Notes: generated by a model from the letters alone, not told the origin. Numbered from the stretch's first letter, positions 1 through 55,609 are shown. The stretch is DNA of 64,000 nucleotides from an uncultured Candidatus Saccharibacteria bacterium (GCA_964469335.1 CAYXYK010000001.1:235976-299975); one strand, 5' to 3'. Made by a program: numbers and translations.

Positions 1-179
1 GCGGGGTACTTGGTCTCGTTGCGTTTGCCGCTGCTGCACCTGCGCATGCAGGTGGTCATGATGCGATCAAGGAATTCGGCAATAATCTTGGTCGTGAGAT
101 CCGAGTACAGATTGGCGAGGCAGGAAGAGACTCTGGGGCAGTCATCGGTGGAGCAGCTCGTGTCGGAATTGACCGTGCA

Positions 180-608
180 GTGAATGCTACGACCGCAGAA
201 GTCTTGCGACGCATGGGAGTCCCAGTCGCACAGACACCCGAAGAGGTAGTTGTCGTCCCGCGCAGTATTCCGGGTGGTGGTTATGGGGTCTACGGTCCTG
301 GGCAGCTCCCTCCGCCCCCAGGAGTGTATGGTGGCTATCCACGTGGGAATGAGGGGAGCGACATCCGTTATGTACGAAGCCAGGAGGTCGGCAATCTTCA
401 GCAGCAACTCGAAGCTCAGAAGGGAATCGCTGCGCAGGCGTATGGCGAAATGATGATGCATAAGGCGAACTATGAGCGAACCGGCAGCAAGGGAGAGTCT
501 GACATGTATTACCTCAAAATGAATGAATACAACCGTGAAATGATCAATATTAACAATACACAGCGTGCACTCAATGTTGCGATCCAAAACATGAGACAAG
601 GGAGATAG
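180..608 (+). CDS. hypothetical protein with Gly/Pro/Tyr-rich low-complexity segment (GTG start; reading frame may extend upstream)
   Basis: ORF track; translation MNATTAEV begins at GTG; segment GGGYGVYGPGQLPPPPGVYGGYPRG; terminator hairpin follows at 631-660. Confidence 0.4.
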   Translation: MNATTAEVLRRMGVPVAQTPEEVVVVPRSIPGGGYGVYGPGQLPPPPGVYGGYPRGNEGSDIRYVRSQEVGNLQQQLEAQKGIAAQAYGEMMMHKANYERTGSKGESDMYYLKMNEYNREMININNTQRALNVAIQNMRQGR

Positions 609-630
609 TTCACGTTTCACGAGATATCAA

Positions 631-660
631 AACATTCCCGGACGGGAATGTTTTGTTTTT
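631..660 (+). terminator. rho-independent terminator (AACATTCCCG-GAC-GGGAATGTT + TTGTTTTT)
   Basis: perfect 9-10 bp stem followed by T-run read directly from sequence. Confidence 0.6.
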
Positions 661-698: not shown

Positions 699-769
699 CG
701 GGGTGTAGTATAATGGTAGTATATATGCTTTGGGAGCATAAGGTCAGAGTTCGATTCTCTGCACCCCGA
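699..769 (+). tRNA. tRNA-Pro (anticodon UGG)
   Basis: manual cloverleaf: acceptor CGGGGTG/CACCCCG, T-arm CAGAG-TTCGATT-CTCTG, anticodon stem TATGC/GCATA with loop TTTGGGA (U33, anticodon TGG, G37); 71 nt, no encoded CCA. Confidence 0.85.
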
Positions 770-782
770 CAAATAACAACAA

Positions 783-804
783 AACCCCGAAAGGGGTTTT
801 GTTG
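783..804 (+). terminator. rho-independent terminator after tRNA-Pro (CCCC-GAAA-GGGG + TTTTGTTG)
   Basis: GC stem plus T-run seen in sequence. Confidence 0.6.
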
Positions 805-1004
805 TATGTCGTCGGGGGGAGAAAGTGCCTTGCGGCACTTTCGTCAGAGAATCGAAACCCTTCTCCGCTATTTGTGAAGAATTATTATTCTGAACAAATC
901 GGAAAGGGGTACTGCGGCTGTAGGCCGAGATTCTCTGCTTTTTTAAAAAATTATTGCTTCTCCGCATTTCCTCTTCTCCATTTCCCATATACTATATATA
1001 GAGT

Positions 1005-1616
1005 ATGGAATCCGACCCCACTATCGATACACCATCACCTGATGTACACGATCTGTTCGCTCAGGAACAAAAAGAGGATGCGCATGAGTTATTTCTCTTC
1101 GAGATAGATAATGAGCTTTATGCTGTATCAGTAGAAGATGTCGATCAGGTCATGAAGATCCCTCCGGTGACAAGTGTGCCAAATGCCCCGGATTCTATCC
1201 TCGGAATATTCCATCTTCGCGGGAAAGTGATCGTCGCCATCGACCTTCTGCGTCGCATGCATATCAAGCGGCAATCTTCGTTCGTGCCGCTCTACCTCTT
1301 CGTTTCCCATAAGCAGAAGAACTATTTCGCTGTTCTTGTTGACCGGGTATTCAGTGTGATCAAAGTTCCCAAAAGCATGATCACTCCGCTTTCCCCAGTC
1401 ATCGCGTCAAAGATCAGCGCAGAATATGTTCGCGGCATGTTCATGTACAAGGAACCCATAAAGACACAAAAACGTCCTGACAATTTCATGATTGAGCCAA
1501 AGAAGGAAGGAGAAGTAGTTTCCGTCGAGGAGCCGCCTCGCCCTGCGCTTTGGCTCAATATCCCACTCCTGCTTGACCAACAGGAGATCCTGAAGACCGA
1601 GGGTGTACCCGATTGA
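1005..1616 (+). CDS. cheW: CheW-like chemotaxis coupling protein
   Basis: ELFLFEIDNELYAVSVEDVDQVMKIPPVTSVPNAPDSILGIFHLRGKVIVAIDL matches the CheW-like domain pattern; first gene of che cluster. Confidence 0.85.
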   Translation: MESDPTIDTPSPDVHDLFAQEQKEDAHELFLFEIDNELYAVSVEDVDQVMKIPPVTSVPNAPDSILGIFHLRGKVIVAIDLLRRMHIKRQSSFVPLYLFVSHKQKNYFAVLVDRVFSVIKVPKSMITPLSPVIASKISAEYVRGMFMYKEPIKTQKRPDNFMIEPKKEGEVVSVEEPPRPALWLNIPLLLDQQEILKTEGVPD

Positions 1617-1651
1617 GTGCATTCGACAAATTTTCGGATATGGTACAATAA

Positions 1652-2032
1652 TTGAATCAAATTTCGTATAAGCATATGGACAAAAAAATTCTCATTGTTG
1701 ATGATTCCGCATTCATGCGCAAGGTACTAAGGGACATCTTTGAAAGTGCGGGGTATACCCACTTCATCGAAGCGGCGAACGGGCGCGAGGCGATCGAGAA
1801 ATGGCGCGGAGAGCAACCGGACTTCATTTTTCTTGATGTGATCATGCCGGAGATGAACGGAATCGATGTGCTCCGTGAGATAGGGAAAGAAGCAAAGATC
1901 ATCGTTGTCTCAGCTGTCGGGCAGGACGAAATGATCCAAGAAGCAAAATCACTTGGGGCACTCGACTATGTGGTCAAGCCGTTCGATCGCGATCTCGTTC
2001 TTGAGAAAGCGCAAAAGTATATTCCGAAGTAA
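1652..2032 (+). CDS. cheY: CheY-like single-domain response regulator (alternative start at 1676, MDKKILIVDD)
   Basis: KILIVDDSAFMRK ... FIFLDVIMPEMNGIDVL ... DYVVKPF: receiver-domain acidic pocket, phospho-Asp and K motifs. Confidence 0.85.
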   Translation: MNQISYKHMDKKILIVDDSAFMRKVLRDIFESAGYTHFIEAANGREAIEKWRGEQPDFIFLDVIMPEMNGIDVLREIGKEAKIIVVSAVGQDEMIQEAKSLGALDYVVKPFDRDLVLEKAQKYIPK

Positions 2033-2049
2033 TCCCGCTGAGGAGACGT

Positions 2050-3129
2050 ATGAATACCAGTAGTGATGCAAAGATCCGCGTGCTTGTTGCGGACGATTCT
2101 TTTTTCATTCGTCGATACCTCAGTGAATTATTTGAGCGCTCTTCGGATATAGAGGTAGTCGGCATGGCAAGTGATGGCGAGGAAGTTGTCACACTCGCAC
2201 GAACCCTGAAACCTGATGTGATCACGATGGACTTCCACATGCCGAAGAAGAACGGGATCGAAGCCACCGCGGAGATCATGCTCGGGGAGCGTCCGCTTCC
2301 AGCCATCGTCATGCTCTCAGCGTTCGACGGTAAAGACGGCGAGAAGGTGAAGCGGTCCCTTCTTGCTTCTGGGGCAGAAGTGCTCATGAAACCGTCTGGT
2401 GAGATATCCCTAGATATCGAACGGGCAGCTCAGGACATACTGACCCGTGTCAGGCAGGTCGGAACAGTCGAGCTGCGAATGAAAGAACTCTATCATCGGA
2501 TGCATGGTGCGCACATGAGAATACCGGACACATTTGGTGTCCACCGAGGGAGAGAGCCGATCGTACTCGTGCTCGGTGCCTCGACTGGCGGACCTCCGCT
2601 CATCGAACATCTTTTGTCGCTGATCGATCCATACTCGGGAGTCGCGGTCATTATCGTGCAGCATATGTCGCATTATTTCACCGAACTGTTCGCCGAACGA
2701 CTTGATCGCGTCACAAATTTCAACGTGCGCGAGGCAGTCGATGGAGACATCCCTTCGGCAGGTGTGGCGCTTGTTGTTCCTGGGGGGATGTATCTTGAAC
2801 AGGGAGTAGGTGATGAGGGGGAGATACTTCCGGGTTTTCTGGTGAAAAAAAGCGATGGTCCTCATGAAACGGAGATAGACAAGACCATGGAGGCAGTTGC
2901 TTCGATGGCAGGTAATCGTGTTTGCGGAGTACTCCTGTCGGGAATGGGTGCCGACGGTGCAAATGGGATGAGAAGCATTAAAGAGCATGGTGGAAGTACC
3001 GTGGTGCAAGATCCAGAAGATGCGGCAGTCTCATCCATGCCGAAAAGCGCGGTGAATGCCGCGGTCGCCGATGTCGTTCTGACTGCGGACATGATACCCG
3101 AATATATCAAGACGCTCATCGGCAAGTAG
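2050..3129 (+). CDS. cheB: CheB protein-glutamate methylesterase (REC + methylesterase)
   Basis: N-terminal receiver (VLVADDSFFIRR...ITMDFHMPKKNG) then methylesterase motifs IVLVLGASTGGPPLI and SMP. Confidence 0.9.
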   Translation: MNTSSDAKIRVLVADDSFFIRRYLSELFERSSDIEVVGMASDGEEVVTLARTLKPDVITMDFHMPKKNGIEATAEIMLGERPLPAIVMLSAFDGKDGEKVKRSLLASGAEVLMKPSGEISLDIERAAQDILTRVRQVGTVELRMKELYHRMHGAHMRIPDTFGVHRGREPIVLVLGASTGGPPLIEHLLSLIDPYSGVAVIIVQHMSHYFTELFAERLDRVTNFNVREAVDGDIPSAGVALVVPGGMYLEQGVGDEGEILPGFLVKKSDGPHETEIDKTMEAVASMAGNRVCGVLLSGMGADGANGMRSIKEHGGSTVVQDPEDAAVSSMPKSAVNAAVADVVLTADMIPEYIKTLIGK

Positions 3130-3159
3130 TCACCCTCTGCATCGTGATACAATGAATTC

Positions 3160-4848
3160 GTGGTACTCGGTAATAATAAATTCAAGGACCTTTTTTGTGA
3201 GGAAGCAACGGACCAACTCACCACTCTCTCCGGTGAACTTTTGAATATTGAAAAAGACCCAACAAATATCGAGCGATATGCGACGCTCATGCGTGCAGCA
3301 CACACAGTGAAAGGCGCAGCGGCGACGATGGGATATACCGGAATGGCGAAACTCGCACATGCACTCGAAGACGTCTTCCATCTTGGAGAACGAAAGGCAA
3401 TAGTACTCGATGCTGAAGCGGTGAGCGTCTCACTGTCTGCGATCGACACGATGCGCGCCTCGCTTGCAGAGATCAAAGAACATGACAAGGAGATCGACGT
3501 TGAGCAAGTCATTCAGAATTTACTCGCACTTACTTCAAGGGAGCAATCGGCATCTTCTGCTATCGCAGAGAATGCTCCTGTTCATCCCACTCCGGTGCCA
3601 GCGCAGGCTTTTGCGTCCGCACTTCCATCAAGTGTGCGTGTGGATGTCGAACGACTGGACGCACTGATGGGACTTTTTGAAGAAATGCTCATGCTACGAC
3701 TCAAGCTCGATTCTCTGCTTGAGCCGGCGATCGGGATCACCAAAACTATCACCGATCACCAAGTAAAGGATCGACTCTATTTTCTAAAAGAGTTCGAGAC
3801 CATCTTTGCGCAACTCGCACGGCTGCTCTCAGAGACGCAGGGTCAATTGCTCACGATACGACTGGTGCAAGTCGAGATGATTTTTTCTCAGTTCCCACGT
3901 ATGGTACGTGATCTTTCATTGCGTGAAGGTAAACAGGTCGAGTTTCGCATGGAGGGAGGAGATGTAGAGCTTGATCGCACAGTGCTCAGTGGACTTGGAG
4001 GAGCACTCGCGCATCTCCTCCGGAATGCAGTCGACCATGGGATAGATAAGTCGGGCACGATAGTTCTTTCCGCAAAACACATGAACGATCGTGTCCATGT
4101 GTCAGTAGTCGATAATGGAGTCGGGATCGACTATGATCGCGTCAAGCAAGTCGCCATCGAGCGGGGCATCATCGCTGAAGATGCGGCAACACACCTGCGT
4201 AAGCAGGAGATCACTGAATTACTCTTTCACCCGAATATGTCCACCAATACCGAAGTGACAGATATTTCCGGGAGAGGGGTCGGGCTTTCAGCGGTGCATT
4301 CATTCGTCAAAGAAGTCGGAGGACACATTTCAGTCATTTCACCTGTATCGGACGGAAGGGGGACGAAGTTTCTGCTCGATCTTCCCATCTCACTTGCAAC
4401 GGTCCAAGTCCTTCTGGTCGAATCAAGTCGCTTTACCTTCGCGCTTCCATTCAGCGCTGTCGTTCGTACCCTGACATTCTCCCGAAGTGACATAAGGGAG
4501 TCCGCGCATCAGGAGATGGTCACCGTGGACGGTAAACTCGTACCAATACTCTATCTTAACAAGCTTCTCGACATCACGTTCGGTGACATGTTCTTCGCAG
4601 GAAAGAAAGTCGGTGATGAGGTACTGGCGGTCTTGCTTGAGATCGAAGGAGAGCGTATCTTGGTCGCGATAGATAGCTGCCTCGGAGAGCAGGAACTCTT
4701 GATCAAATCACTCCCCCCTGTTCTTCGCAACATACGTGGATTCTCAGGGTCAGCGCTTCTCCCTGACGGTCGTACCATCTTATTACTCGACGCGCACGGT
4801 TTACTCCTCGAAGCACTTGGCGATATACTGGGTACTCATAACACTTGA
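3160..4848 (+). CDS. cheA: CheA histidine kinase (HPt-dimerisation-HATPase-CheW-like; appears to lack a P2 domain)
   Basis: HPt motif RAAHTVKGAAATMGY; P3 VRVDVERLDALMGLFEE; N-box HLLRNAVDHG; G-boxes VVDNGVGID and GRGVGLSAV; C-terminal CheW-like region. Confidence 0.9.
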   Translation: MVLGNNKFKDLFCEEATDQLTTLSGELLNIEKDPTNIERYATLMRAAHTVKGAAATMGYTGMAKLAHALEDVFHLGERKAIVLDAEAVSVSLSAIDTMRASLAEIKEHDKEIDVEQVIQNLLALTSREQSASSAIAENAPVHPTPVPAQAFASALPSSVRVDVERLDALMGLFEEMLMLRLKLDSLLEPAIGITKTITDHQVKDRLYFLKEFETIFAQLARLLSETQGQLLTIRLVQVEMIFSQFPRMVRDLSLREGKQVEFRMEGGDVELDRTVLSGLGGALAHLLRNAVDHGIDKSGTIVLSAKHMNDRVHVSVVDNGVGIDYDRVKQVAIERGIIAEDAATHLRKQEITELLFHPNMSTNTEVTDISGRGVGLSAVHSFVKEVGGHISVISPVSDGRGTKFLLDLPISLATVQVLLVESSRFTFALPFSAVVRTLTFSRSDIRESAHQEMVTVDGKLVPILYLNKLLDITFGDMFFAGKKVGDEVLAVLLEIEGERILVAIDSCLGEQELLIKSLPPVLRNIRGFSGSALLPDGRTILLLDAHGLLLEALGDILGTHNT

Positions 4849-4849
4849 T

Positions 4850-5512
4850 ATGTCACACGCATTTCATCTCACACGCGAAGACGAAGACCAACTGAAAGAA
4901 CTTTTGAACATCGAGGTATCCCATGCTTCAACTACACTTTCAAAAATGGTAGGAAAGTCAGTCACAATCAGTGTTCCCAATCTTGACGTAAAGAATGCCC
5001 GCTCTCTCACTGTGAAGGTGAAGGATCCAAACGCCATTACGGTTGCTGTGCTCCTGCGTCTTTCAGGAATACTCGAGGGATATGTACTGCTCTATTTCCC
5101 ATACTCCGCATCGCTCCGTCTCTTGCAGACGCTTTCCGGGAAAAAAGTGACCGATCTCCGGGCGCTCGACAAGTACGACCGCTCGATCTTTCAGGAGGTC
5201 GGCAACGTACTGACCGGCGGAATGCTCAAAGGACTTTCTCAGTTTCTTCATATCGAACTGATGCAGTCAGTACCTGACGTCGTCATCGATATGGGCGGGG
5301 CGATGTTCAATTCCATCTCGGCGGCGATGATCCATCAGCACAATGAATTCCTCGCACTCGATGTCGCCATCTGTGTCGATGCCGAACCAGGATCGTTCTC
5401 TTGCAAAGACGGGCAGGAGGCGGTCGGCAATATGTATCTTTTTCTCGGACCGGAGGCGGCGGATACGATCCTTAAGCTTACTAACGCGATGATCAGTCCG
5501 AGCCATGAGTAA
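4850..5512 (+). CDS. cheC: CheC-family CheY-P phosphatase
   Basis: both CheC signature sites D/S-x3-E-x2-N-x22-P present exactly (DQLKELLN...22 aa...P and SIFQEVGN...22 aa...P); start ATG 4850 immediately after cheA stop. Confidence 0.85.
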   Translation: MSHAFHLTREDEDQLKELLNIEVSHASTTLSKMVGKSVTISVPNLDVKNARSLTVKVKDPNAITVAVLLRLSGILEGYVLLYFPYSASLRLLQTLSGKKVTDLRALDKYDRSIFQEVGNVLTGGMLKGLSQFLHIELMQSVPDVVIDMGGAMFNSISAAMIHQHNEFLALDVAICVDAEPGSFSCKDGQEAVGNMYLFLGPEAADTILKLTNAMISPSHE

Positions 5513-5996
5513 GCAAGTCGATATCCATATCGCTGAATTGTTCGCTGCGAACGAGGAGTTCGTGATCACTACCAGTGGTGTCGGTTCTTGTGTCGTCATC
5601 GTGCTTTACGATCGACTAATGCGTATCGGAGGGATGGCACATGCGATACTCCCAAGAAGGCGAACGACAGAAGATGTGAATCTCTTTCATCGGGACGAAA
5701 GCGGGAAGGTGTTCGTGAAGTATGTCGATCAGGCGATCGAGACACTCGTTGACGAGATTAAGGCACTCGGCGGGAATCCCGAACATTTGGTCGCAAAACT
5801 TGTCGGCGGTGCGCATATGTTCGTGCTTCTTGAGGGCGACCAGCATGGCATCGGTTTTGAGAACACCGTCAGCGCCCGCGAGACACTCGCGCGTTTCAAT
5901 ATTCCTGTCGAAACTGAGGTCGTCGGTGGAACGGTCGGGCGGAATGTCCGTTTTGACATATCGACCGGAATCGTCGAGATCACCACGAAAGTGTAA
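5505..5996 (+). CDS. cheD: CheD chemoreceptor glutamine deamidase
   Basis: VGSCVVIVLYD ... GGMAHAILP matches conserved CheD Cys/His region; overlaps cheC by 8 bp. Confidence 0.85.
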   Translation: MSKQVDIHIAELFAANEEFVITTSGVGSCVVIVLYDRLMRIGGMAHAILPRRRTTEDVNLFHRDESGKVFVKYVDQAIETLVDEIKALGGNPEHLVAKLVGGAHMFVLLEGDQHGIGFENTVSARETLARFNIPVETEVVGGTVGRNVRFDISTGIVEITTKV

Positions 5997-6036
5997 GTGA
6001 CTTGTGGAATATCCAAGTTCAAAATAGACTGGTGAC

Positions 6037-6540
6037 ATGAGATCACCGGTCTTTTCATTCATCGCACTCGCGCTCCTTGTCGTAGTTTTGGTAATGAAAA
6101 GTGATCTGCTTTCACGGGAAACATTTGCACGTGAGTATCGAGAGAAGTTTCACGTAGAACCACACGTTTCGCCCGATGGTATATTCCATCTGACATTATG
6201 CGAGTTCAAACCAGCAATGAACGTGAATGCATGGGCACCGAATCATACCCGTACGTTCCGCGCACTGCTCGCAAAAGATGAAGCGACGAACGAACAGTCG
6301 ATCTTTATTGAGCAGGCACGACCGAGAATGTGCTATAAGCTCGAAGGCAAGACGGTTCTGCAAAACATCGATCGAGTATACTGGCTTTCAGCGACCACGC
6401 TCGGGTTCGTCGTAGGTAATTCAACGGGAAGCGGAACAGAGTACTTCATCGACATAAGGACACTCTCATCGACCCATCATCCGGAACATGAAGGAAGTGA
6501 GATGAGAAAATTCGGGATCGAGAATAAGTTGATCGATTGA
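6037..6540 (+). CDS. hypothetical protein with N-terminal signal/TM segment
   Basis: ORF track; hydrophobic N-terminus SFIALALLVVVLV; no recognisable family. Confidence 0.5.
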   Translation: MRSPVFSFIALALLVVVLVMKSDLLSRETFAREYREKFHVEPHVSPDGIFHLTLCEFKPAMNVNAWAPNHTRTFRALLAKDEATNEQSIFIEQARPRMCYKLEGKTVLQNIDRVYWLSATTLGFVVGNSTGSGTEYFIDIRTLSSTHHPEHEGSEMRKFGIENKLID

Positions 6541-7208
6541 AAATGAAACGGAATGAGACAATAACTGAGAAACGCGAACGAGTACGTCGCGCAACGAGAA
6601 TACTCCATGAACTCAAGCGACTCTTTCCGTCTGCGGGGATGATGCTCGCATGCACGAATGATTGGGAATTGATGGTAGCAGTGCAACTCTCCGCGCAGTG
6701 TACCGACAAAAAGGTGAATCAAGTAACGCCGGCGTTATTCGCACGTTACCCATCGCTCGATGACTATGCTTCGGCAGACCCTCAAGAGTTTGAACAACTA
6801 ATCTACCAGACTGGATTCTTTCGCGCTAAAACTAAGAACATCCTTGCTGCGGCAAAGATGGTGAAACGTGAGTTCCACGGGATCCTTCCGAGGACCATGA
6901 AGGAGATGCTCACTATCCCAGGAGTCGGCCGCAAGACCGCGAGTGTCGTGCTCGGAAATGCCTACGGAGTCGCAGAAGGCATCGCGGTAGACACCCATGT
7001 GAAACGCTTGTCACAAGTATTCGGGCTCACGGATGAGACAGACGTCGCGAAGATCGAGCGTGACCTGATGGAGCTCATTCCGAAGAACGAATGGTTTCAC
7101 GCTACCTACTTGTTCATTGAGTATGGTAGAAAGTTTTGTCCGGCACGGAAACATGATACGAAAACATGCCCTTTAGGACATGTTTCGATGTTACACACTG
7201 CCGAATAA
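6537..7208 (+). CDS. nth: endonuclease III (HhH-GPD base-excision DNA glycosylase)
   Basis: HhH motif LTIPGVGRKTASVVL, catalytic region, C-terminal Cys residues; overlaps previous ORF by 4 bp. Confidence 0.85.
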   Translation: MKMKRNETITEKRERVRRATRILHELKRLFPSAGMMLACTNDWELMVAVQLSAQCTDKKVNQVTPALFARYPSLDDYASADPQEFEQLIYQTGFFRAKTKNILAAAKMVKREFHGILPRTMKEMLTIPGVGRKTASVVLGNAYGVAEGIAVDTHVKRLSQVFGLTDETDVAKIERDLMELIPKNEWFHATYLFIEYGRKFCPARKHDTKTCPLGHVSMLHTAE

Positions 7209-7312
7209 CATCACAGATCGCTGAGAAACCTATATTTCTCCGTTCCACACGCCAAAGTATGTCCTCGCTGCGTTCCGGTGTTATTCGTGGTCTGTGTTAC
7301 ACGAGTCAATAA

Positions 7313-8026
7313 TCATTTCTTGGAAAGAATGCTCTTGATGACCTCCTCAGTCTCTTTCGGGTTGGCGACAGATCTGGTCGGTACCACACCGATCACCGTT
7401 TCGTCATTCCCGTTCGGGAACAGTGCGTCGCCGACATAAAGACAATCACTCTTCTTCCACTTCATCTTCTTGTAGAGTGCTTCAACGTTCCTACCCTTGT
7501 TGTATCCTTTGATGAAGAAATCAAGGCAGGTCGTACCACCTATCTTCACTTCGACGTTCTTGCTCTTGAATGGGAATTTCTTAAGTATCGTGAGACGCTT
7601 CTTCTGATCGGGGTCGCACTTTTCTTTTTTGCTGATATCTTCCGAGTGACCGATCAGAGAGTACGAGATCTGGCAGCCGCGATCCTGCACCAGATCAAGT
7701 TTGTCCTTGTATCGAAACAAGCCCTTCTTGATGATCATGTTTGCGTACGCGAGTACCTCGAGTTTCTGGGTCCAGTCCATGGTGTTCTCCCAAAGTGTCT
7801 CACCTTCGCGATTCACACACATATTTCCGTTCTGCCCCATCACCCAATATTTACCAGCCATACTTTCGCCGAGTTGGACCCCGATCTGTTTGGTGTTGGC
7901 CCCAGAAACGACGAGTACTTCATGCTTCCTGGAAAGTTCTTTGAGGAGTTTCGACATCTCAGGGGTCACTCTCGAGCGGCTGCGGGTGAGGGTATTGTCG
8001 AGGTCGAAGAAAATATATTTAGGCAT
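7313..8026 (-). CDS. HAD-superfamily hydrolase (PMM/Cof-like)
   Basis: N-terminal FFDLDNTLT HAD motif I, later VGDA motif. Confidence 0.7.
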   Translation of the reverse strand: MPKYIFFDLDNTLTRSRSRVTPEMSKLLKELSRKHEVLVVSGANTKQIGVQLGESMAGKYWVMGQNGNMCVNREGETLWENTMDWTQKLEVLAYANMIIKKGLFRYKDKLDLVQDRGCQISYSLIGHSEDISKKEKCDPDQKKRLTILKKFPFKSKNVEVKIGGTTCLDFFIKGYNKGRNVEALYKKMKWKKSDCLYVGDALFPNGNDETVIGVVPTRSVANPKETEEVIKSILSKK

Positions 8027-17318: not shown

Positions 17319-17545
17319 GGTGTTGGGAGCCGTCTTGCGGCTTACTAGTGATTAAGTTCCTCCAAATAAAATGATAACCAAGAAAAAACGAAACAGGGTA
17401 CCATCGAAGGTAACCTGTTTGTATGTGTAAATGGTAGCAAGGAACACCGGAGGAGTCAATGTGTGCGATCTCCGCACAAGAGGTAGGTGCCGCCACTCTT
17501 TTATATAGTCGAGAAAACACATATAATAGAGCGAGTTCACCCAAT

Positions 17546-19297
17546 ATGCTCATACAGGAAAGCAAACTCAAGAAATTCATACTTGATTCGGGGCTCGCCT
17601 CTCGTGCTGAGGTCGCAGCAGCTGAAAAAGATGCCGAAAAAGAAGGCGGAGATCTTGGGAGTATCCTCGTGAAACAGGGAAAGGTATCTGCAGACGATTT
17701 CCGTCGCGTGCAGGCATATATCCTCGGCATCCCCTTCGTGGACCTGAAGGGACAAAAAATCGATTTCAGCGTCCTTTCGCTCATCCCGGAGCCGATTGCC
17801 CGTAAGCATAATATCGTTGCGTTCCGCAAGACCGACTCGGGTCTTGAGGTGGCGATGCTCGACGTCGATGACCTCGAGGCAATCGACTTCGTTCGCAAGA
17901 AGGTGGGTCTTCGTATTCTCACGCGTTTGACCGACCAGGAGTCGGTCAAAGGTGCACTGCTCCAGTATCAGAAGTCACTGAAGGCGGAATTCGGTGACAT
18001 CATCCAAGAGGAAGCGAAGACGATCCAGATGCTCAAGGATGATGATGACAATCCTGCTTCCGAGAAAGACCTGAAGAAACTTGCCGAGGATCTCCCTGTG
18101 GTTCGCATTGTCGATACTCTTCTCAACCATGCGATCATACAGAACGCGTCCGATATCCATGTGGAGCCGATGGAAAATCAGCTGCTCGTCCGCTATCGTA
18201 TCGACGGTATCCTTCACGACGCTATGGTGTTGCCGAAGGACTCCGCTCCCGGCATCACCGCACGTATCAAAGTGCTTTCGAACCTGAAGCTCGACGAAAA
18301 ACGTTTGCCACAGGATGGTCGTTTCAAGATCCAGCTCAATAACGAAAAGGTCTCCTTCCGTGTCTCGACTCTTCCGACCCATCATGGCGAGAAGACGGTC
18401 ATGCGTCTCCTCCGTGAATCATCCGGCGGTTTCTCGCTCGAGTCACTCGGATTCCACGGACAGGGACTCGAGGCACTCCACAAGTCGATGCAGCAACATG
18501 TCGGTATGATACTCGTCACCGGACCGACTGGGTCTGGTAAGACCACAACGCTCTATACGCTACTCGATATTTTAAACACTCCCGACGTGAACATTTCGAC
18601 GATCGAAGACCCAGTCGAATATCAGATGCCACGTATCAACCAGACTCAAGTGAAGCCGGAAATAGGACTGACGTTCGCTATGGGGCTCCGTGCACTTCTG
18701 CGTCAGGATCCCGATGTCATCATGGTGGGAGAGATCCGCGATGGTGAAACAGCTTCGCTCGGTATCAATGCCGCCCTCACTGGGCACCTCGTGCTTTCAA
18801 CACTACATACGAATTCCGCATCTGGAACTCTTCCTCGCTTCGTCGACATGGGTGCGGAGCCATTCCTAATTATCTCAACGGTGAATGTCATCATCGCACA
18901 ACGCCTCGTGCGCAAGCTTTGTGCAACGAAAGAAAAATACAATCTGACAAAACCTGAGATTGAGGCCCTTGGCGAAAAAGCGAACCTCGACCGCATCCTC
19001 GCCGCACTCAAGGAAGAGGGAATAGTCGGGAAAGAAGCGACTTGGGAAACATTACCTTTCTATAAACCAAAGTCGTCTCCTGAATGCGAGGAAGGATACA
19101 AGGGACGTGTCAGTATCCACGAGGTACTCCGCATGTCACCCGCGATCCGCGAGCTTGCGGTCATCAATGCATCTGCTGAGAAAATCGAAGCACAGGCACG
19201 CAAAGAGGGAATGCTCACCATGCTCGAAGACGGAATCTTCCAGGCCGCACAAGGCCTCACTTCCATCGAAGAAGTCTTCCGTGTGGTGAGCGAATAA
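17546..19297 (+). CDS. pilB: type IV pilus assembly ATPase PilB/GspE family
   Basis: Walker A GPTGSGKTTTLY, Asp/His boxes; start trimmed to MLIQESKLKKF (ORF track begins upstream at 17459). Confidence 0.9.
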   Translation: MLIQESKLKKFILDSGLASRAEVAAAEKDAEKEGGDLGSILVKQGKVSADDFRRVQAYILGIPFVDLKGQKIDFSVLSLIPEPIARKHNIVAFRKTDSGLEVAMLDVDDLEAIDFVRKKVGLRILTRLTDQESVKGALLQYQKSLKAEFGDIIQEEAKTIQMLKDDDDNPASEKDLKKLAEDLPVVRIVDTLLNHAIIQNASDIHVEPMENQLLVRYRIDGILHDAMVLPKDSAPGITARIKVLSNLKLDEKRLPQDGRFKIQLNNEKVSFRVSTLPTHHGEKTVMRLLRESSGGFSLESLGFHGQGLEALHKSMQQHVGMILVTGPTGSGKTTTLYTLLDILNTPDVNISTIEDPVEYQMPRINQTQVKPEIGLTFAMGLRALLRQDPDVIMVGEIRDGETASLGINAALTGHLVLSTLHTNSASGTLPRFVDMGAEPFLIISTVNVIIAQRLVRKLCATKEKYNLTKPEIEALGEKANLDRILAALKEEGIVGKEATWETLPFYKPKSSPECEEGYKGRVSIHEVLRMSPAIRELAVINASAEKIEAQARKEGMLTMLEDGIFQAAQGLTSIEEVFRVVSE

Positions 19298-19342
19298 TAA
19301 GGATTACATTAATTCCACTTTCTCTATATAATAGAGTGAGTT

Positions 19343-20560
19343 ATGCCGAAGTACACATATAAGGCGCAATTGATGGCGACCGGAGCTGAAGTGGAAGGAA
19401 CAGCTGAAGCTGCGGATAAGTTCGAGCTCGCCAAGAATATGAAAGCGGAAGGGAAGCTTCTTCTTACCGCGATGGAACTTTCCGAGAAGTCTTTCAATAT
19501 GGATAAGATCAATGCGTTCCTTTCACGCATCGATCTTCGCGAAAAAATAGTGTTTGCAAGGAACCTCGCAACAATGATCCAGGCGGGACTCCCGCTCTCT
19601 CGAGCATTGGCGATCTTTCTCAAGCAGACGCAGAACCCGAAGTTCCGTGAAGTGTTGCGATCATTGATCGACGATATCAATAAAGGGACCGCACTTTCCG
19701 ATGCGATGGATAAGTATCCGAAAGTATTCGAGCCGGTATTCGTTTCAATGGTCCGTGCAGGAGAAGAGTCCGGCGGTTTGGTCGAAGCACTCAACGTGGT
19801 CGGAGGCCAGATGGAGAAGACGTACACCATCAAGAAAAAAGTGAAAGGCGCGATGATGTACCCTGCGATGGTGCTCTTGGTGATGGCTGTCGTCGGTGTA
19901 CTAATGATGATCTACGTCGTCCCTGGTCTCGCTGCTTCATTTAAGGAGGCAGGGGCAGAATTGCCGCCGCTTACCAAAGTTGTCATCGGTATCAGTGATT
20001 TTCTCCAGAATGATAGTCTACTCTCACTCCTTGTCGTTGGCGTTCTCGGAGGCTCATTCTGGTGGTTCAAGAGCACTCCGGTCGGAGAGCGGTCGACCAC
20101 TTGGGTGATGATGCGCTCTCCCATATTCGGCAAACTAATGAAGGAATTCAATTCAGCACTCGTCACCCGCACGCTTTCCTCACTTATCTCCGCGGGTGTC
20201 GATATCGTTCACGCGCTCGATATCACTCAAGATGTGGTCGGGAATCTTTTCTACAAACTCACTCTTGAACAGGCGAAAGAGAATGTGCAAAAAGGTGTTC
20301 CGCTCTCGAAGGTATTCACGGAAAACCCGGATATCTACCCTGTGATGGTAGGAGACATGATGGAAGTCGGCGAAGAGACTGGACAACTTTCGACCATGCT
20401 GCTCAAGATCGCGACTTTCTATGAGCAGGAGGTTGATCAGGCGACCGAAGATATGTCGAAGTTGATCGAGCCGCTCCTGATGGCGGTGATCGCGGTGTTC
20501 GTGGGTATATTTGCTGTTGCGATGATCACGCCGATGTATTCCCTCATGCAGAGTATCTGA
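19343..20560 (+). CDS. pilC: type IV pilus inner-membrane platform protein PilC (GspF family)
   Basis: two T2SS-F repeats, polytopic membrane protein immediately after pilB. Confidence 0.9.
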   Translation: MPKYTYKAQLMATGAEVEGTAEAADKFELAKNMKAEGKLLLTAMELSEKSFNMDKINAFLSRIDLREKIVFARNLATMIQAGLPLSRALAIFLKQTQNPKFREVLRSLIDDINKGTALSDAMDKYPKVFEPVFVSMVRAGEESGGLVEALNVVGGQMEKTYTIKKKVKGAMMYPAMVLLVMAVVGVLMMIYVVPGLAASFKEAGAELPPLTKVVIGISDFLQNDSLLSLLVVGVLGGSFWWFKSTPVGERSTTWVMMRSPIFGKLMKEFNSALVTRTLSSLISAGVDIVHALDITQDVVGNLFYKLTLEQAKENVQKGVPLSKVFTENPDIYPVMVGDMMEVGEETGQLSTMLLKIATFYEQEVDQATEDMSKLIEPLLMAVIAVFVGIFAVAMITPMYSLMQSI

Positions 20561-20591
20561 TCCATTTTTGACGCGCTACACGTCTTTCCTT

Positions 20592-20660
20592 CGGCGGATC
20601 GAGTCACCGTAGCAGACTACGCATCCTCGATATCACCTTAGTTCAAGACTTCGTACCCCA
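20592..20660. repeat. intergenic element, copy A of a repeated ~60-nt motif in the pilus locus (core CGTAGCAGAC-ACG-ATC-TCGA)
   Basis: TCACCGTAGCAGACTACGCATCCTCGATAT...TTCAAGACTTCG aligns with copy at 24716-24795. Confidence 0.45.
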
Positions 20661-20690
20661 TGCAAAAATGAACCAGAAGAAAAGATAACA

Positions 20691-22490
20691 ATGGAAATAT
20701 TTTTTGATAAAAATAGGAAACGAGGACTCTCATACATCGAGACGGTGATCTCGATAGCCATCTTTGCCGCCGTTGCAACGATGCTCTACTCGACTTATGA
20801 ACGAGTGTTTGTCACCGCCCGCGCGGCACAAGCTCGTGTCAATGCCATTGCGCTCGCAGATGAGCAGTTTGAAGTCGCACGAAACCTTCCATTCGGAAAA
20901 GTAGGGACGGTCGGGGGAATTCCGGCAGGAGTGATGAAACAAGTGCAGACACTTACTCGTGCAGGGATGACCTACATCGCAACCACGACTGTACGCAATA
21001 TCGATCAGCCTTTCGATGGCACTGCTGGCGGCGCTCCGAACGATCTTTCTCCTGCCGACAATAAGTTGATCGAGATCGATATCACCTGTATCACTTGTGT
21101 AAATTTTCGCCCCCTTGTCCTAACGAGTTGGATCGGGCCAAAAGATCTTGAGGGATCTTCAACGAACGGCTCGCTCTTTGTGCAAGCGATCGACTCGAAC
21201 GGACTCGCAATCTCCGGCGTCAATGTCAATATCGTTGCGACCAGCACGATTCCTCCGGTAAGTATCAGTGACGTGACGGCAACCTCGGGACTTCTCCAAC
21301 TCGTTGACGCTCCGCCGGCGAATGAGGGTTATCAGATCAGTGTTTCAAAGCCCGGATATTCGAGTGAGCAGACCTATGCCAAGACCTCGACGACGACGAA
21401 CCCAGTCAAGCCGAACGCGACGATCGTTGCACAGACCGTGACGCAGCTTACATTCGCCATCGATCGTACGTCGACATTGAATTTCTCAAGTGTTTCCCCG
21501 TCATGCGGAATCGTTCCCAATGTAAATCTCCATATGAACGGAACGAAGATCATCTCTACTTCACCTGACGTACTAAAATATGACCAGTGGATGAAAACGA
21601 ACGGCGGAGGGCAACTCACGCTGAATGATATTGAATGGGATTCATATACGCTCGCCGCAACAAGCTCCACATATGAGCTCGCTGGTGTAATGCCACTGCA
21701 GCCATTCACTATTGCGCCAGGCTCAACACAGAACATCCAGCTTGTGATGATGCCGAAAGATCCGCCGAGTGTACTCGTTACCGTGAAGGATGCCGGCACT
21801 GGACTACCTGTTACAGGGGCGACGGTAACACTCGACCTCAGTGGGGCATCAACGACCATGACGACAGGTCGAGGGTTCATGAGCCAAACCGATTGGTCCG
21901 GTGGAGGAGGACAAAGTGATTTTGCTGTTTCGAATCAGTATTCGACCGATGATGGAAATATTGATGCGATCACAGTGCCCGGACAGGTCACTCTCCTCAA
22001 TGCGCTAGGCGTATATCAACCAAGCGGAGTGCTTTATTCATCGACATTCGATACCGGTTCGGCAAGTAATTTCTACCAATTCCTCTTTCAGCCGACGAAT
22101 CAACCAACCGCTGTAGGTGATAGCCCCGTCGAGTTCCAACTTGCGAGCGGCAATAGTACAAGCTCTTGGACCTATCTTGGTCCTGACGGGACCGCAGCAA
22201 CGTACTACAACGCGACAACGACTGATATTTCGGCAACGAACAATGGGAATCGTTATCTTCGTTACAAGCTGTTTCTCTCGACTGCCTCTTCGTCATACTC
22301 ACCAAGTGTCTCGGATATCCAATTTACCTTCACCTCATCTTGTGTTCCTCCTGGACAAGTGCTCTTCCAGAACCTTTCTGTTGGGACTTATGATATTTCA
22401 GTGTCGAAAGCTGGTTATACAACAGCAAACGATACTGTCACTGTCACTGCAGGCTCATGGCAGGAGAAGCAGATAAGTATCGGACCGTAA
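20691..22490 (+). CDS. large pilin-like protein (prepilin-type N-terminus, 599 aa)
   Basis: N-terminus KRGLSYIETVISIAIFAAVA resembles class III (prepilin) signal; long Thr/Ser-rich beta-type body. Confidence 0.6.
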   Translation: MEIFFDKNRKRGLSYIETVISIAIFAAVATMLYSTYERVFVTARAAQARVNAIALADEQFEVARNLPFGKVGTVGGIPAGVMKQVQTLTRAGMTYIATTTVRNIDQPFDGTAGGAPNDLSPADNKLIEIDITCITCVNFRPLVLTSWIGPKDLEGSSTNGSLFVQAIDSNGLAISGVNVNIVATSTIPPVSISDVTATSGLLQLVDAPPANEGYQISVSKPGYSSEQTYAKTSTTTNPVKPNATIVAQTVTQLTFAIDRTSTLNFSSVSPSCGIVPNVNLHMNGTKIISTSPDVLKYDQWMKTNGGGQLTLNDIEWDSYTLAATSSTYELAGVMPLQPFTIAPGSTQNIQLVMMPKDPPSVLVTVKDAGTGLPVTGATVTLDLSGASTTMTTGRGFMSQTDWSGGGGQSDFAVSNQYSTDDGNIDAITVPGQVTLLNALGVYQPSGVLYSSTFDTGSASNFYQFLFQPTNQPTAVGDSPVEFQLASGNSTSSWTYLGPDGTAATYYNATTTDISATNNGNRYLRYKLFLSTASSSYSPSVSDIQFTFTSSCVPPGQVLFQNLSVGTYDISVSKAGYTTANDTVTVTAGSWQEKQISIGP

Positions 22491-22525
22491 TGCGAAAGCG
22501 ACGAGAATAGCGTAAAATAAGGAAG

Positions 22526-23155
22526 ATGTCGTTTACACATGCGAATGTTCGTTCACGAGGCTTCACAATCATTGAGGCAGTGGTGTCCATGGCGATCCTC
22601 TTGATGATCGGTATAGGAATTATTGCCTTTGAGCGCAGTGTGCTTACGAATACCAAAGTGATGCAAGCGCAATTGACTGCGCAGCAACAGATCAGAAAGA
22701 CACTCGCAGGATTTGTCGCCGATGTGCGCTCGGCAACACAGTCTTCCGGCGGTGCATATGCGATCGATACTGCAGCGACCTCGACACTCATCTTCTATGC
22801 GAATATCGACAGTGATGCGTCAATTGAGCGCATACGATACTTCATTGCGACAGGGACACTCCGTCGTGCAACATTAAAGCCAACGGGAACTGTTTACAAC
22901 TCGGCAAACGAAAAAATCTCGACGATCGTGAAGGATTTTGCAAATCCCACTTCTACCCCTGTTTTCACATATTATGACACCGGTTATGACGGGTTCACTT
23001 CTTCGTCGACCGACCCTCTTCCTGTGCCAATCAACATACCTTCGATCAGGATGATCAAGATGTCACTTGTGGTGAACCCGAATGGGGTACGCGCACCCGT
23101 GATGCAGACATATGTCACTCAGGTGTCCCTTCGTAACTTGAAAGACAATCTATAG
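22526..23155 (+). CDS. minor pilin / pseudopilin (prepilin-type N-terminal cleavage/methylation domain)
   Basis: RGFTIIEAVVSMAILLMIGIG N-terminus. Confidence 0.65.
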   Translation: MSFTHANVRSRGFTIIEAVVSMAILLMIGIGIIAFERSVLTNTKVMQAQLTAQQQIRKTLAGFVADVRSATQSSGGAYAIDTAATSTLIFYANIDSDASIERIRYFIATGTLRRATLKPTGTVYNSANEKISTIVKDFANPTSTPVFTYYDTGYDGFTSSSTDPLPVPINIPSIRMIKMSLVVNPNGVRAPVMQTYVTQVSLRNLKDNL

Positions 23156-23210
23156 AAATACCTCCCTTCAATAATGTTCGGAGACGGAGTACAATTAAAC
23201 TGCGTTCGCA

Positions 23211-32207: not shown

Positions 32208-32267
32208 GTATACCGCATTTGTGTCCAGTGTTCCCGTCTTGCAAACTTTCCTTCGAAGGAATAGTTT

Positions 32268-46133: not shown

Positions 46134-46166
46134 TCGCGCGTCCCATTCTTAGAGAACATTGAAGTT

Positions 46167-54767: not shown

Positions 54768-55145
54768 ATGAAAGTCGTTCTTGTTGCTGAGGATCATCCG
54801 GTCGTCCGGGTCACCCTTGTCGCCCTGCTCGAGACATTCGGCATCTTTACGGTCGTTGCTGTCGAGAACGGTAAGAAAGCGTTGGAGTACCTCGAAACAC
54901 TCCCGCCGCATGTCACGAAGACCCTCCTCATCACCGACTGGGACATGCCGGAGATGACCGGCATCGAGCTGGTGCAGGCTATCCGTGCCGATGCTCGCCT
55001 CATGAGGACGCCGATCATCATGACCAGCAGCCGGACGCCGGAAGAGATCGCCTCTGCCCTTTCGCTAGGGGTGGATGCCTTCATCGACAAGCCTGCCCCG
55101 ACCGATCAGCTCGAAGACCTCGTTCATCGCTATCTCGATTCGTGA
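54768..55145 (+). CDS. orphan single-domain response regulator (receiver only)
   Basis: VLVAEDHPVVR ... LLITDWDMPEMTGIEL ... FIDKP; terminator CACGCGCCC-TCG-GGCGCGTG + T-run at 55153-55185. Confidence 0.8.
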   Translation: MKVVLVAEDHPVVRVTLVALLETFGIFTVVAVENGKKALEYLETLPPHVTKTLLITDWDMPEMTGIELVQAIRADARLMRTPIIMTSSRTPEEIASALSLGVDAFIDKPAPTDQLEDLVHRYLDS

Positions 55146-55243
55146 ATCTCTGACACGCGCCCTCGGGCGCGTGTTCCTTTTTATATTGACAGTACCCACC
55201 GAAAAGCACACTATAAAAATGGATCAATTACTTTGGAGGCTCT

Positions 55244-55609
55244 ATGAGCAATATCAGGATACTCATCGTCGACGATGACAAAGTGTTCCGCGATGCCGCT
55301 GCGAAGTGGCTCGCAAGAGAAGGCTTCGAAGACGTCAGCGTTCTTGGGAATGCGATATCCGCCCTCGAGCGTATCGCCGTCGATGGCGACTATGACCTCC
55401 TCATCACCGACTTCAACATGCCGGAGATGACCGGAGTGCAACTGATCGAACGAGTGCGCTCGCTCGGACGGATCGAACCTCCCAAGTTCATCGTAATGAG
55501 TGCCGGGAAGAATTCCGAGGTCGCACTTCGTGGCGGTGCAGATCGGTTCTTCTCCAAGCTGACACCACTCGACGAGCTGTCTATGGCAATCGCGGAGTTG
55601 TTCCCATGA
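55244..55609 (+). CDS. orphan single-domain response regulator (receiver only)
   Basis: ILIVDDDKVFRD ... LLITDFNMPEMTGVQL ... FFSKL; terminator at 55625-55665. Confidence 0.8.
   Translation: MSNIRILIVDDDKVFRDAAAKWLAREGFEDVSVLGNAISALERIAVDGDYDLLITDFNMPEMTGVQLIERVRSLGRIEPPKFIVMSAGKNSEVALRGGADRFFSKLTPLDELSMAIAELFP

What the first reader, a model, noticed from the sequence alone, without database searches (positions are those of the whole stretch)
1005..5996. Complete-looking CheW-CheY-CheB-CheA-CheC-CheD operon with no receptor or CheR, in a pilus-only context
Six chemosensory genes are tightly packed, with overlaps of 2-8 bp. Both CheC phosphatase signatures are present, and the CheA appears to lack a P2 domain.

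The window contains no MCP, no CheR and no flagellar genes. It does contain a type IV pilus/ComEC locus.

The operon sits right after a tRNA-Pro and its terminator.

In small-genome pilus-bearing lineages chemosensory systems are unusual. A Che-like pathway here most plausibly controls type IV pili (twitching, attachment or DNA uptake) rather than flagella.
Basis: partly seen in the sequence, partly recalled or inferred. Interest (0 to 1): 0.7.

Follow-up and report, generated by a model that had tools for sequence, protein, structure and literature searches.

The report
Receptor-less chemosensory operon in an ultra-small bacterium
An ultra-small (CPR, Lloydbacteria-type) bacterium, from a group usually described as lacking chemotaxis, carries an intact and strongly conserved six-gene chemosensory operon with no receptor gene beside it, and in related genomes the same operon sits directly next to a type IV pilus operon, so it most likely steers pili rather than flagella.

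Summary
Window 1005-5996 encodes CheW, CheY, CheB, CheA, CheC and CheD, all with catalytic residues intact. CheA has no P2 domain. The 64 kb holds no MCP, CheR or flagellar gene. Only CheC and CheD overlap; the other genes are 1-59 nt apart.

The window comes from a Lloydbacteria-type Parcubacteria/CPR genome. The operon belongs to a clade of about 70 CheAs (49-100% identity) with conserved synteny, including the tRNA-Pro upstream of cheW. All six genes are under strong purifying selection (dN/dS 0-0.04).

By best family and structure matches and by gene content the system is F1-like, not the Pil-Chp (Tfp) class.

None of 17 loci of this clade (266 kb) has an MCP. All six fetched clusters of other CPR lineages have one next to cheW.

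In three subclades the operon directly abuts a REC-PilB-PilC-...-PilM-pilin operon. In the window that operon is missing exactly between nth and a HAD gene. The window's own pil locus is a paralog (PilB 41%, PilC 29%).

Pilus control is therefore supported by comparison with relatives, not by this window's pil locus. Whether an MCP or CheR lies elsewhere in the genome could not be tested. I rate it a new variant of a known kind, of moderate to high interest.

The parts
3..608 (+). 3' part of a conserved, fast-evolving gene of unknown function. The full-length protein is about 340-385 aa, with a hydrophobic segment and a Q/R/E-rich coiled coil. It precedes tRNA-Pro and cheW throughout the clade. 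It is context only, not a receptor.
   Evidence: Frame-3 translation aligns with L003 6120-7256 and L008. hhalign against a CPR MCP profile gives probability 0.1%.
628..655 (+). Terminator-like hairpin with a T-run, closing the upstream gene.
699..770 (+). tRNA-Pro (TGG). It is conserved immediately upstream of cheW in nine loci of the clade.
776..805 (.). Perfect 13-bp stem hairpin just after tRNA-Pro. On the + strand it has no canonical U-tract.
1005..1616 (+). CheW, 203 aa. The CheW-like domain covers residues 29-146, with about 25 extra N-terminal and 55 extra C-terminal residues. The LRG motif is kept.
   Evidence: Pfam PF01584, E = 6e-23. dN/dS 0.036.
1676..2032 (+). CheY, 118 aa. D9, D10, D53, S79, Y98 and K101 are intact. 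It is the most conserved protein of the operon (74-100% identity within the clade).
2050..3129 (+). CheB, with a REC domain and a methylesterase domain. The Ser-His-Asp motifs are present.
   Evidence: PF01339, E = 9e-50. Sequence. dN/dS 0.030.
3160..4848 (+). CheA, 562 aa, with domains P1 (His48), P3, P4 and P5. There is no P2 domain, and the P3 domain is divergent.
4850..5512 (+). CheC phosphatase, 220 aa, with both active-site motifs.
   Evidence: Pfam CheC and CheX hits. NCBIfam CheC_Thtogales, E = 1e-31. Motifs read from the sequence. dN/dS 0.013.
5505..5996 (+). CheD deamidase, 163 aa, with the Cys29 and His46 motifs present. It overlaps cheC by 8 bp.
   Evidence: PF03975, E = 6.5e-23. 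NCBIfam CheD_Thtga. dN/dS 0.027.
6026..6052 (+). Terminator-like hairpin with a T-run at the end of the che operon.
6037..6540 (+). Membrane-anchored protein of unknown function. It is conserved in position but evolves fast. It overlaps the start of nth and is probably not part of the pathway.
   Evidence: No Pfam or NCBIfam hit. 26-35% identity to its positional counterparts. dN/dS 0.16.
6537..7208 (+). Endonuclease III (Nth). It is the conserved downstream neighbour of the operon.
7209..7312 (.). Junction between nth and the HAD gene. In L096 an 11.4-kb REC-PilB-PilC-pilin-...-PilM-pilin operon sits at this site; here it is absent.
7313..8026 (-). HAD/PMM-type hydrolase. It is the ortholog (66% identity) of the gene that follows the pilus operon in L096.
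17459..24689 (+). Type IV pilus locus of the window: PilB (MshEN plus T2SSE), PilC and three pilin-like genes. It is a paralog of the che-linked pilus operon of relatives and remains a possible target.
54768..55609 (+). Two stand-alone REC proteins (54768-55145 and 55244-55609) with no cognate kinase in the window. They are candidate extra CheA targets, but they are not orthologs of the pilus-operon REC.

Best explanation
This is a functional, vertically inherited, F1-like chemosensory operon (CheW-CheY-CheB-CheA-CheC-CheD) of a Lloydbacteria-type CPR bacterium.

Proposed working:
- One or more receptors encoded elsewhere in the genome couple through CheW and the P5 domain to a P2-less CheA.
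- CheA autophosphorylates on His48 and passes the phosphoryl group to CheY. Where the gene is present, it probably also passes it to the stand-alone REC that heads the mainstream Parcubacteria type IV pilus operon.
- Phospho-CheY/REC modulates the pilus motor (PilB, PilC or PilM), and so pilus extension, attachment or twitching.
- CheC dephosphorylates CheY-P.
- CheD and CheB modify the receptor, and CheD also binds CheC, as in Bacillus and Thermotoga.

Shown here: gene identities, intact catalytic motifs, purifying selection, clade-wide synteny, and recurrent adjacency of che and pilus operons.

Inferred: the phosphotransfer partners, the pilus as output, and the existence of a receptor elsewhere.
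For: - Domain and motif content is complete.
- dN/dS is 0.00-0.036 for all six genes against the closest relative L098. That is at or below the values for flanking nth (0.11) and the HAD gene (0.04).
- The operon is conserved in about 70 CheA lineages at 49-100% identity, with the same gene order and the same tRNA-Pro upstream.
- Che-(Nth)-REC-PilB-PilC-...-PilM-pilin adjacency occurs in L005, L012 and L096. These fall in all three subclades of a CheA NJ tree, so the adjacency is probably ancestral.
- A more distant CPR cluster (L010) independently has PilC, PilB, PilT and a pilin 2.7 kb from cheD.
- The REC is an integral first gene of that pilus operon even where che is not nearby (L097).
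- There are no flagellar genes in the window or in the relatives' loci that came with Pfam annotation. The literature reports that CPR lack flagella but have widespread T4P (PMC7137472, PMC7143001).
- Retention under selection of CheW, P5, CheB and CheD, which act on or through receptors, argues that a receptor exists.
Against: - No MCP or CheR occurs in the window or in 266 kb from 17 loci of the clade. All six other CPR clusters have an MCP next to cheW.
- CheB has been cleanly deleted in two clade members, L016 and L019. The receptor-modification branch may therefore be degenerating.
- In this window the che-linked REC-pilus operon is absent from its site, and no ortholog of that REC is present.
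- The window's pil locus is a paralog and lies 11 kb away behind a block of opposite-strand housekeeping genes.
- Adjacency within one clade may partly reflect inherited synteny rather than selection.
- Five of the six other CPR clusters have no pilus genes within 10 kb.
- No PilT was seen in the window or in the che-linked operon.
- dS is about 1, close to saturation.
Confidence: 0.55

Rival explanations
1. The Lloydbacteria-type pathway has no canonical MCP or CheR anywhere in the genome. CheA and CheW then take their input from an unrecognised partner, or CheA runs constitutively and is tuned by CheC and CheD. The output may still be pili.
For: - MCP is present in 0 of 17 clade loci and next to cheW in all six fetched clusters of other CPR lineages.
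- No CheR is recorded in any Pfam-annotated CPR locus.
- CheB is lost in L016 and L019.
- The CheA P3 domain falls below the Pfam cutoff in this clade only.
- CheW is the least conserved che protein (40-69% identity) and carries extensions.
Against: - CheW, P5, CheB and CheD are under strong purifying selection, and CheB and CheD have no known substrate other than receptors.
- MCP genes are often unlinked to che operons in other bacteria.
- The only positional candidate, the roughly 350-aa upstream protein, shows no MCP similarity. It is also cut off from the operon by terminator-like hairpins and a tRNA gene.
Confidence: 0.18
2. The operon is an alternative-cellular-function pathway unrelated to pili. 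It might control gene expression, cell-envelope or host-interaction factors through CheY or the orphan RECs.
For: - In the window and in several relatives (L001, L003, L006, L016, L019) no pilus gene is adjacent.
- Two orphan REC proteins lie elsewhere in the window.
- Five of the six other CPR clusters lack pilus neighbours.
Against: - Che-pilus adjacency recurs in three subclades plus L010.
- CheY is a plain single-domain REC, as in motility systems. Its best family match is a chemotaxis CheY.
- No output-domain response regulator is encoded in or beside the operon.
Confidence: 0.2
3. It is a classical flagellar chemotaxis operon whose flagellar, MCP and CheR genes lie elsewhere in the genome.
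For: The F1 class controls flagella in Firmicutes and Thermotogae (established knowledge). Only about 64 kb of the genome was seen.
Against: - No flagellar gene occurs in the window or in any Pfam-annotated locus of relatives.
- CPR and Patescibacteria are consistently reported to lack flagella (PMC7137472, PMC7143001, PMC11974145).
Confidence: 0.03
4. It is a decaying remnant, a recent horizontal acquisition at a tRNA gene, or a binning or assembly contaminant.
For: The operon sits next to a tRNA gene. Che genes are atypical for CPR. The window has an odd ORFan region at 50-54.7 kb.
Against: - dN/dS is 0-0.04.
- The same tRNA-Pro-che-nth synteny, with flanking RNase Y and ClpP at 79-95% identity, is found in independent assemblies.
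- GC content is uniform across che and its flanks.
Confidence: 0.02

Closest known systems
F1-class chemosensory systems (Bacillus subtilis and Thermotoga maritima flagellar systems; archaeal Che systems driving the archaellum)
   Same: - The gene set includes CheC and CheD together with CheB, CheW, CheY and CheA.
- Best NCBIfam matches are CheA_Halo, CheY_Halo, CheC_Thtogales and CheD_Thtga.
- The best solved-structure match is T. maritima CheA.
- The nearest non-CPR CheAs are archaeal (Methanoperedens, Syntrophoarchaeum).
- MCPs of sister CPR clusters have a cytoplasmic domain of about 305 residues, consistent with the long receptor class used by F1 systems.
   Different: - CheA has no P2 domain.
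- No MCP or CheR is linked to the operon.
- There is no flagellum, archaellum or CheF.
- The genomic partner is a bacterial type IV pilus operon.
- The host is an ultra-small CPR bacterium.
Tfp-class systems (Pseudomonas Pil-Chp; cyanobacterial Tax/Pix)
   Same: The proposed logic is the same: a CheA-type kinase feeds single-domain REC proteins that act on the T4P motor. A REC gene sits at the head of the pilus operon, much as PilG and PilH do.
   Different: - CheA is not of the ChpA type, which has multiple Hpt domains and a C-terminal REC.
- CheC and CheD are present, which is not typical of the Tfp class.
- No PilJ-type MCP, PilK (CheR) or PilI arrangement is present.
- By sequence the proteins are closest to F1 proteins.
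Che clusters of other CPR lineages (Uhrbacteria GCA_043805995.1 and four unnamed assemblies: GCA_018816805.1, GCA_964624665.1, GCA_964345445.1, GCA_964643135.1)
   Same: Same gene order W-Y-B-A-C-D, a P2-less CheA, no CheR in the neighbourhood, and 33-40% CheA identity.
   Different: Those clusters always carry an MCP immediately next to cheW, and their CheA P3 domain is detected by Pfam. The Lloydbacteria-type clade has neither.

Membership tests
Chemosensory (Che) pathway core | CheA with Hpt, dimerisation, HATPase and CheW-like domains and a phosphorylatable His | tested here: met
   Pfam, NCBIfam and PDB hits. His48 lies in RAAHTVKG, and the N, G1 and G2 boxes are present. P3 is weak (20.5 bits against a cutoff of 23) but aligns to T. 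maritima P3.
Chemosensory (Che) pathway core | CheW adaptor and CheY response regulator | tested here: met
Chemosensory (Che) pathway core | At least one MCP (PF00015) in the genome | not testable with these tools
   MCP is absent from the 64-kb window and from 266 kb of clade loci. No tool gave whole-genome access. Look-ups and collection scans were exhausted.
F1 class (classification of Wuichet and Zhulin) | CheC and CheD present alongside CheB | tested here: met
F1 class (classification of Wuichet and Zhulin) | CheA groups with F1 CheAs | tested here: inconclusive
   Nearest-neighbour evidence only: CheA_Halo scores 328 bits against 224 for E. coli CheA, and the closest non-CPR hits are archaeal. 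Class-specific HMMs and a labelled phylogeny were not available.
F1 class (classification of Wuichet and Zhulin) | CheR methyltransferase and cognate long (44-heptad) MCPs | tested here: not met
   This applies to the locus and window only. No PF01739 or PF03705 family appears in any scanned ORF or annotated locus, and there is no MCP. The genome-wide state is unknown.
Tfp class (Pil-Chp / Tax) | ChpA-type CheA with several Hpt domains and a C-terminal receiver | tested here: not met
   Single Hpt and no REC in CheA.
Tfp class (Pil-Chp / Tax) | Genomic linkage to T4P genes with PilG/PilH-like RECs | tested here: inconclusive
   Met in relatives L005, L012 and L096, and partly in L010. Not met in this window, where the linked operon is missing and the resident pil locus is a paralog.
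Archaeal Che-archaellum coupling | CheF adaptor and archaellum (Arl/Fla) genes | tested here: not met
   No such Pfam families occur in the window or in the annotated loci.

The most novel reading that the evidence does not exclude
A whole clade of ultra-small CPR bacteria keeps an F1-derived CheA-CheW-CheY-CheC-CheD module under strong selection after losing canonical receptors and CheR. The module would take input from an unrecognised partner and drive type IV pili through a pilus-operon REC. That would be both a receptor-independent, or novel-receptor, chemosensory pathway and a second, independent origin of Che control over T4P, used for finding or attaching to hosts.
Probability: 0.15. 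Interest if true: 0.85.

Novelty: new variant of a known kind. Interest (0 to 1): 0.6.

Why it matters
CPR/Patescibacteria are portrayed as lacking chemotaxis and motility control. Their type IV pili are nevertheless central to episymbiosis and DNA uptake.

A conserved, selected Che pathway genomically tied to the mainstream Parcubacteria pilus operon would mean that some of these organisms can steer pilus activity in response to signals. One possible use is locating or engaging hosts.

It would also extend the F1 class, known to drive flagella and archaella, to bacterial T4P, independently of the Pil-Chp (Tfp) class.

The consistent absence of a linked receptor, and the sporadic loss of CheB, give a natural test case for how far a chemosensory core can be reduced.

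Tried and rejected
1. The roughly 350-aa gene upstream of the operon as a degenerate receptor. It occupies the slot that MCP holds in other CPR clusters. Rejected because hhalign against an MCP profile gives probability 0.1%, the family has no invariant column, and it is separated from che by hairpins and tRNA-Pro.

2. The 167-aa gene after cheD as a CheF-like adaptor. It has no family hit, has an N-terminal membrane anchor, evolves fast (dN/dS 0.16), and overlaps the nth start. It is probably unrelated.

3. tRNA-Pro adjacency as a sign of an integrated island. Rejected because the tRNA is conserved at this position across the clade.

4. The window's orphan RECs as orthologs of the pilus-operon REC. 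Rejected at 23% identity or less. NCBIfam gives that REC no specific family.

5. Search for a Lloydbacteria MCP using a profile of CPR MCPs. The nearest hits that could be placed (P0129, P0130, P0160) all belong to other CPR clusters with an MCP beside cheW. Cluster look-up of ten further hits gave no organism or accession.

6. The species-representative genome scan with CheA found only three clade members and not the source genome. The exact CheA sequence is held only on a 5-kb contig, so the source genome could not be walked.

7. Seven full-text literature searches found no description of a CPR Che-pilus link.

8. P2-less CheA as a special feature. Rejected because more than half of all CheAs lack a detectable P2 (PMC10782961).


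Full report
**1. What is at the coordinates**

ORF listing and Pfam/NCBIfam scans show six co-directional genes:

| Gene | Window coordinates | Notes |
|---|---|---|
| CheW | 1005-1616 | |
| CheY | 1676-2032 | the ORF runs from a TTG at 1652; orthologs start at the ATG |
| CheB | 2050-3129 | REC plus methylesterase |
| CheA | 3160-4848 | |
| CheC | 4850-5512 | the ORF extends upstream to 4736, but orthologs in L001 and L098 start 6-9 nt after the cheA stop |
| CheD | 5505-5996 | |

Reading the translations, the functional residues are intact:
- CheY: D9, D10, D53, S79, Y98, K101.
- CheA: His48 in RAAHTVKG, plus the N, G1 and G2 boxes.
- CheB: the receiver Asp and the GASTGG, VQHM and GMGADG motifs.
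- CheC: both [D/S]x3Ex2Nx22P sites.
- CheD: the GSC and MAH motifs.

In CheA, P1 ends near residue 105 and P3 begins at 157, by alignment to T. maritima CheA. The 50-residue linker cannot hold a P2 domain. This feature is ordinary, since more than half of all CheAs lack a detectable P2 (PMC10782961).

Only cheC and cheD overlap, by 8 bp.

Hairpins flank the unit at 628-655, 776-805 and 6026-6052. tRNA-Pro(TGG) lies at 699-770.

**2. What the window lacks**

Six-frame tblastn with the E. coli Tsr signalling domain and three CPR MCPs finds nothing in the window, while positive controls hit.

Pfam scans of every substantial ORF find no MCPsignal, CheR, flagellar, PilT or PilM family. Rfam finds only the two tRNAs.

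The window does hold:
- PilB (MshEN plus T2SSE), PilC and three pilin-like genes at 17459-24689.
- A split ComEC.
- Typical small-genome housekeeping genes: RNase Y, ClpP, trigger factor, NusA, EF-G, EF-Tu and the start of the S10 operon.

**3. Whose genome it is**

The CheA has about 70 close homologs at 49-100% identity. All are about 560 aa and lack P2. The named ones are Candidatus Lloydbacteria (Parcubacteria, CPR).

Below that there is a gap to 40% identity or less. There the hits are other Patescibacteria, followed by archaeal CheAs that do have P2.

Loci from independent assemblies share the window's synteny. The order is: [about 94 aa][about 350 aa] tRNA-Pro, cheWYBACD, [about 140-190 aa], nth. 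Flanking RNase Y and ClpP are 79-95% identical.

The operon is therefore native and old in this lineage. The tRNA junction is conserved synteny, not an integration scar.

**4. Is it functional?**

Against the closest relative (L098, CheA 94% identical), Nei-Gojobori dN/dS values are:

| Gene | dN/dS |
|---|---|
| CheW | 0.036 |
| CheY | 0.00 |
| CheB | 0.030 |
| CheA | 0.032 |
| CheC | 0.013 |
| CheD | 0.027 |
| Unknown 167-aa gene | 0.16 |
| nth | 0.11 |
| HAD gene | 0.04 |

dS is about 1, so the values are approximate. Even so, the contrast and the intact ORFs across a clade that has diverged to 50% identity exclude a decaying remnant.

**5. Which kind of Che system**

Best NCBIfam matches are CheA_Halo (328 bits, against 224 for E. 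coli CheA), CheY_Halo, CheC_Thtogales and CheD_Thtga. The best solved structure is T. maritima CheA. The nearest non-CPR CheAs are archaeal.

Together with the CheC plus CheD plus CheB gene set, this is F1-like. It is not the Tfp (Pil-Chp) class, whose kinase has multiple Hpt domains and a C-terminal receiver. Formal class HMMs were not available, so F1 membership rests on nearest neighbours and gene content.

**6. The receptor problem**

Six che clusters from other CPR lineages were fetched: L010 (Uhrbacteria), L011, L013, L014, L020 and L095. All carry an MCP immediately next to cheW, and mostly in the same W-Y-B-A-C-D order. An Actinomycetota cluster (L009), used as the positive control, also has an adjacent MCP.

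In contrast, none of 17 loci of the Lloydbacteria-type clade has an MCP. Including the window, these total 266 kb.

None of the CPR loci for which Pfam annotation was returned lists CheR.

Two clade members (L016 and L019) have cleanly lost cheB. Two outgroup clusters have a REC-less CheB.

I tested whether the gene occupying the MCP's slot is a degenerate receptor. It is not. This roughly 350-aa family has a hydrophobic segment and a coiled coil. It has no invariant column, it scores 0.1% probability against an MCP profile, and it is insulated from che by a terminator and a tRNA gene.

I could not access whole genomes, so whether an MCP or CheR lies elsewhere is untested. Strong selection on CheW, P5, CheB and CheD makes a distal receptor the more likely state. 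I estimate about 0.8 for a distal receptor against about 0.18 for a truly receptor-less or novel-receptor pathway.

**7. The pilus link**

- L005: cheD is followed directly by a stand-alone REC, PilB, PilC, pilins and PilM.
- L012 and L096: the order is cheD, unknown gene, nth, REC, PilB, PilC, pilin, a roughly 930-aa protein, PilM, pilin.

These three loci fall in all three subclades of a rough NJ tree of CheA. The adjacency is therefore most parsimoniously ancestral to the clade.

Independently, the Uhrbacteria cluster L010 has PilC, PilB, a PilT-like ATPase and a pilin 2.7 kb beyond cheD.

The REC is an integral first gene of that pilus operon even where che is not nearby (L097). Its PilB is the mainstream Parcubacteria PilB, with 50-60% identity in Wolfe-, Jorgensen-, Vogel- and Falkowbacteria.

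In L096 the pilus operon is followed by a HAD hydrolase on the opposite strand. The window's HAD gene (7313-8026, minus strand) is its ortholog at 66% identity, and it lies only 104 nt after nth. So in the window's lineage the 11.4-kb REC-pilus operon is missing exactly at this junction.

By comparison, the che-linked operons of L005 and L012 are 75% (PilB) and 67% (PilC) identical to each other. The window's locus is therefore a paralogous system. No ortholog of the pilus-operon REC is in the window.

**8. Most likely mechanism**

The most likely mechanism is a canonical phosphorelay: receptor(s) elsewhere, then CheW and CheA, then CheY. Where it is present, the pilus-operon REC is probably a second target. 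CheC acts as the phosphatase, and CheD and CheB act as receptor-modifying and feedback elements, as in Bacillus and Thermotoga. The output is type IV pilus activity.

The pilus output is inferred from three things:
- recurrent gene neighbourhood;
- the absence of flagella in the window, in the annotated loci and in the CPR literature (PMC7137472, PMC7143001, PMC11974145);
- precedent, since single-domain REC proteins act on T4P motors in Pil-Chp and cyanobacterial systems (established knowledge).

The main caveats are these. Neighbourhood within one clade can be inherited rather than selected. Five of six outgroup clusters lack pilus neighbours. In this particular genome the linked operon is not in place.

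**9. Novelty and verdict**

Full-text searches found no description of a CPR Che pathway tied to T4P. Reviews and surveys state that the group lacks chemotaxis.

The components are all known families, and the logic resembles Tfp-class systems. The system is nevertheless a distinct variant in four respects: an F1-like composition, a T4P partner, a CPR host, and clade-wide absence of a linked receptor and CheR.

- Observation: confirmed.
- Interpretation: partly supported.
- Novelty: new variant of a known kind.
- Interest: 0.6.

Noticed in passing
window 44934-54700: The ribosomal S10 operon (EF-Tu, S10, L3, L4, L23, L2) stops after rplB at 49286. S19, L22 and S3 do not follow. Instead there is an opposite-strand DUF2726 gene (49346-49981) and about 4.7 kb of small ORFan reading frames with raised GC (up to 0.59) and no Pfam or Rfam hit. 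This may be an insertion or an assembly join.
   Followed up: partly
window 30122-33149: ComEC is split. The DUF4131 and Competence domains (30122-31654) and the metallo-beta-lactamase domain (32268-33149) are separate ORFs. An opposite-strand VTT/DedA-family ORF (31611-32309) spans the gap.
   Followed up: no
window 54768-57610: Two stand-alone receiver proteins lie at 54768-55145 and 55244-55609, and a REC-sized ORF without a Pfam hit lies at 57212-57610. No histidine kinase other than CheA is in the window. They are possible additional CheA targets.
   Followed up: partly
L012 17732-19138: A diversity-generating-retroelement-like pair (bAvd accessory protein plus reverse transcriptase) is inserted between PilB and PilC of the che-linked pilus operon.
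   Followed up: no
L016 1046-1617; L019 3346-3742; L011 9383-9994; L014 12942-13601: The adaptation branch varies among CPR che clusters. cheB is deleted outright in two Lloydbacteria-type loci. In two other CPR clusters CheB lacks its receiver domain.
   Followed up: partly
window 20691-22490: A 599-aa protein has a pilin-like N-terminus and a C-terminal CarboxypepD_reg/PEGA-like domain. The che-linked operons of relatives instead carry a roughly 930-aa protein at the equivalent place.
   Followed up: no
L001 6204-7526; L003 5825-7256; L096 584-2209; window 3-608: A conserved pair of unknown genes always precedes tRNA-Pro and cheW in the clade. One is a well conserved 94-aa protein. The other is a very fast-evolving 340-385-aa protein with a hydrophobic segment ending in an A-x-A-G-G motif and a coiled-coil tail. 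Their function is unknown.
   Followed up: partly
L010 677-3454: In the Uhrbacteria cluster a hemerythrin gene sits just upstream of the dCache-MCP, and a PAS protein lies between the RECs and cheB. This hints at oxygen or redox input in that lineage.
   Followed up: no
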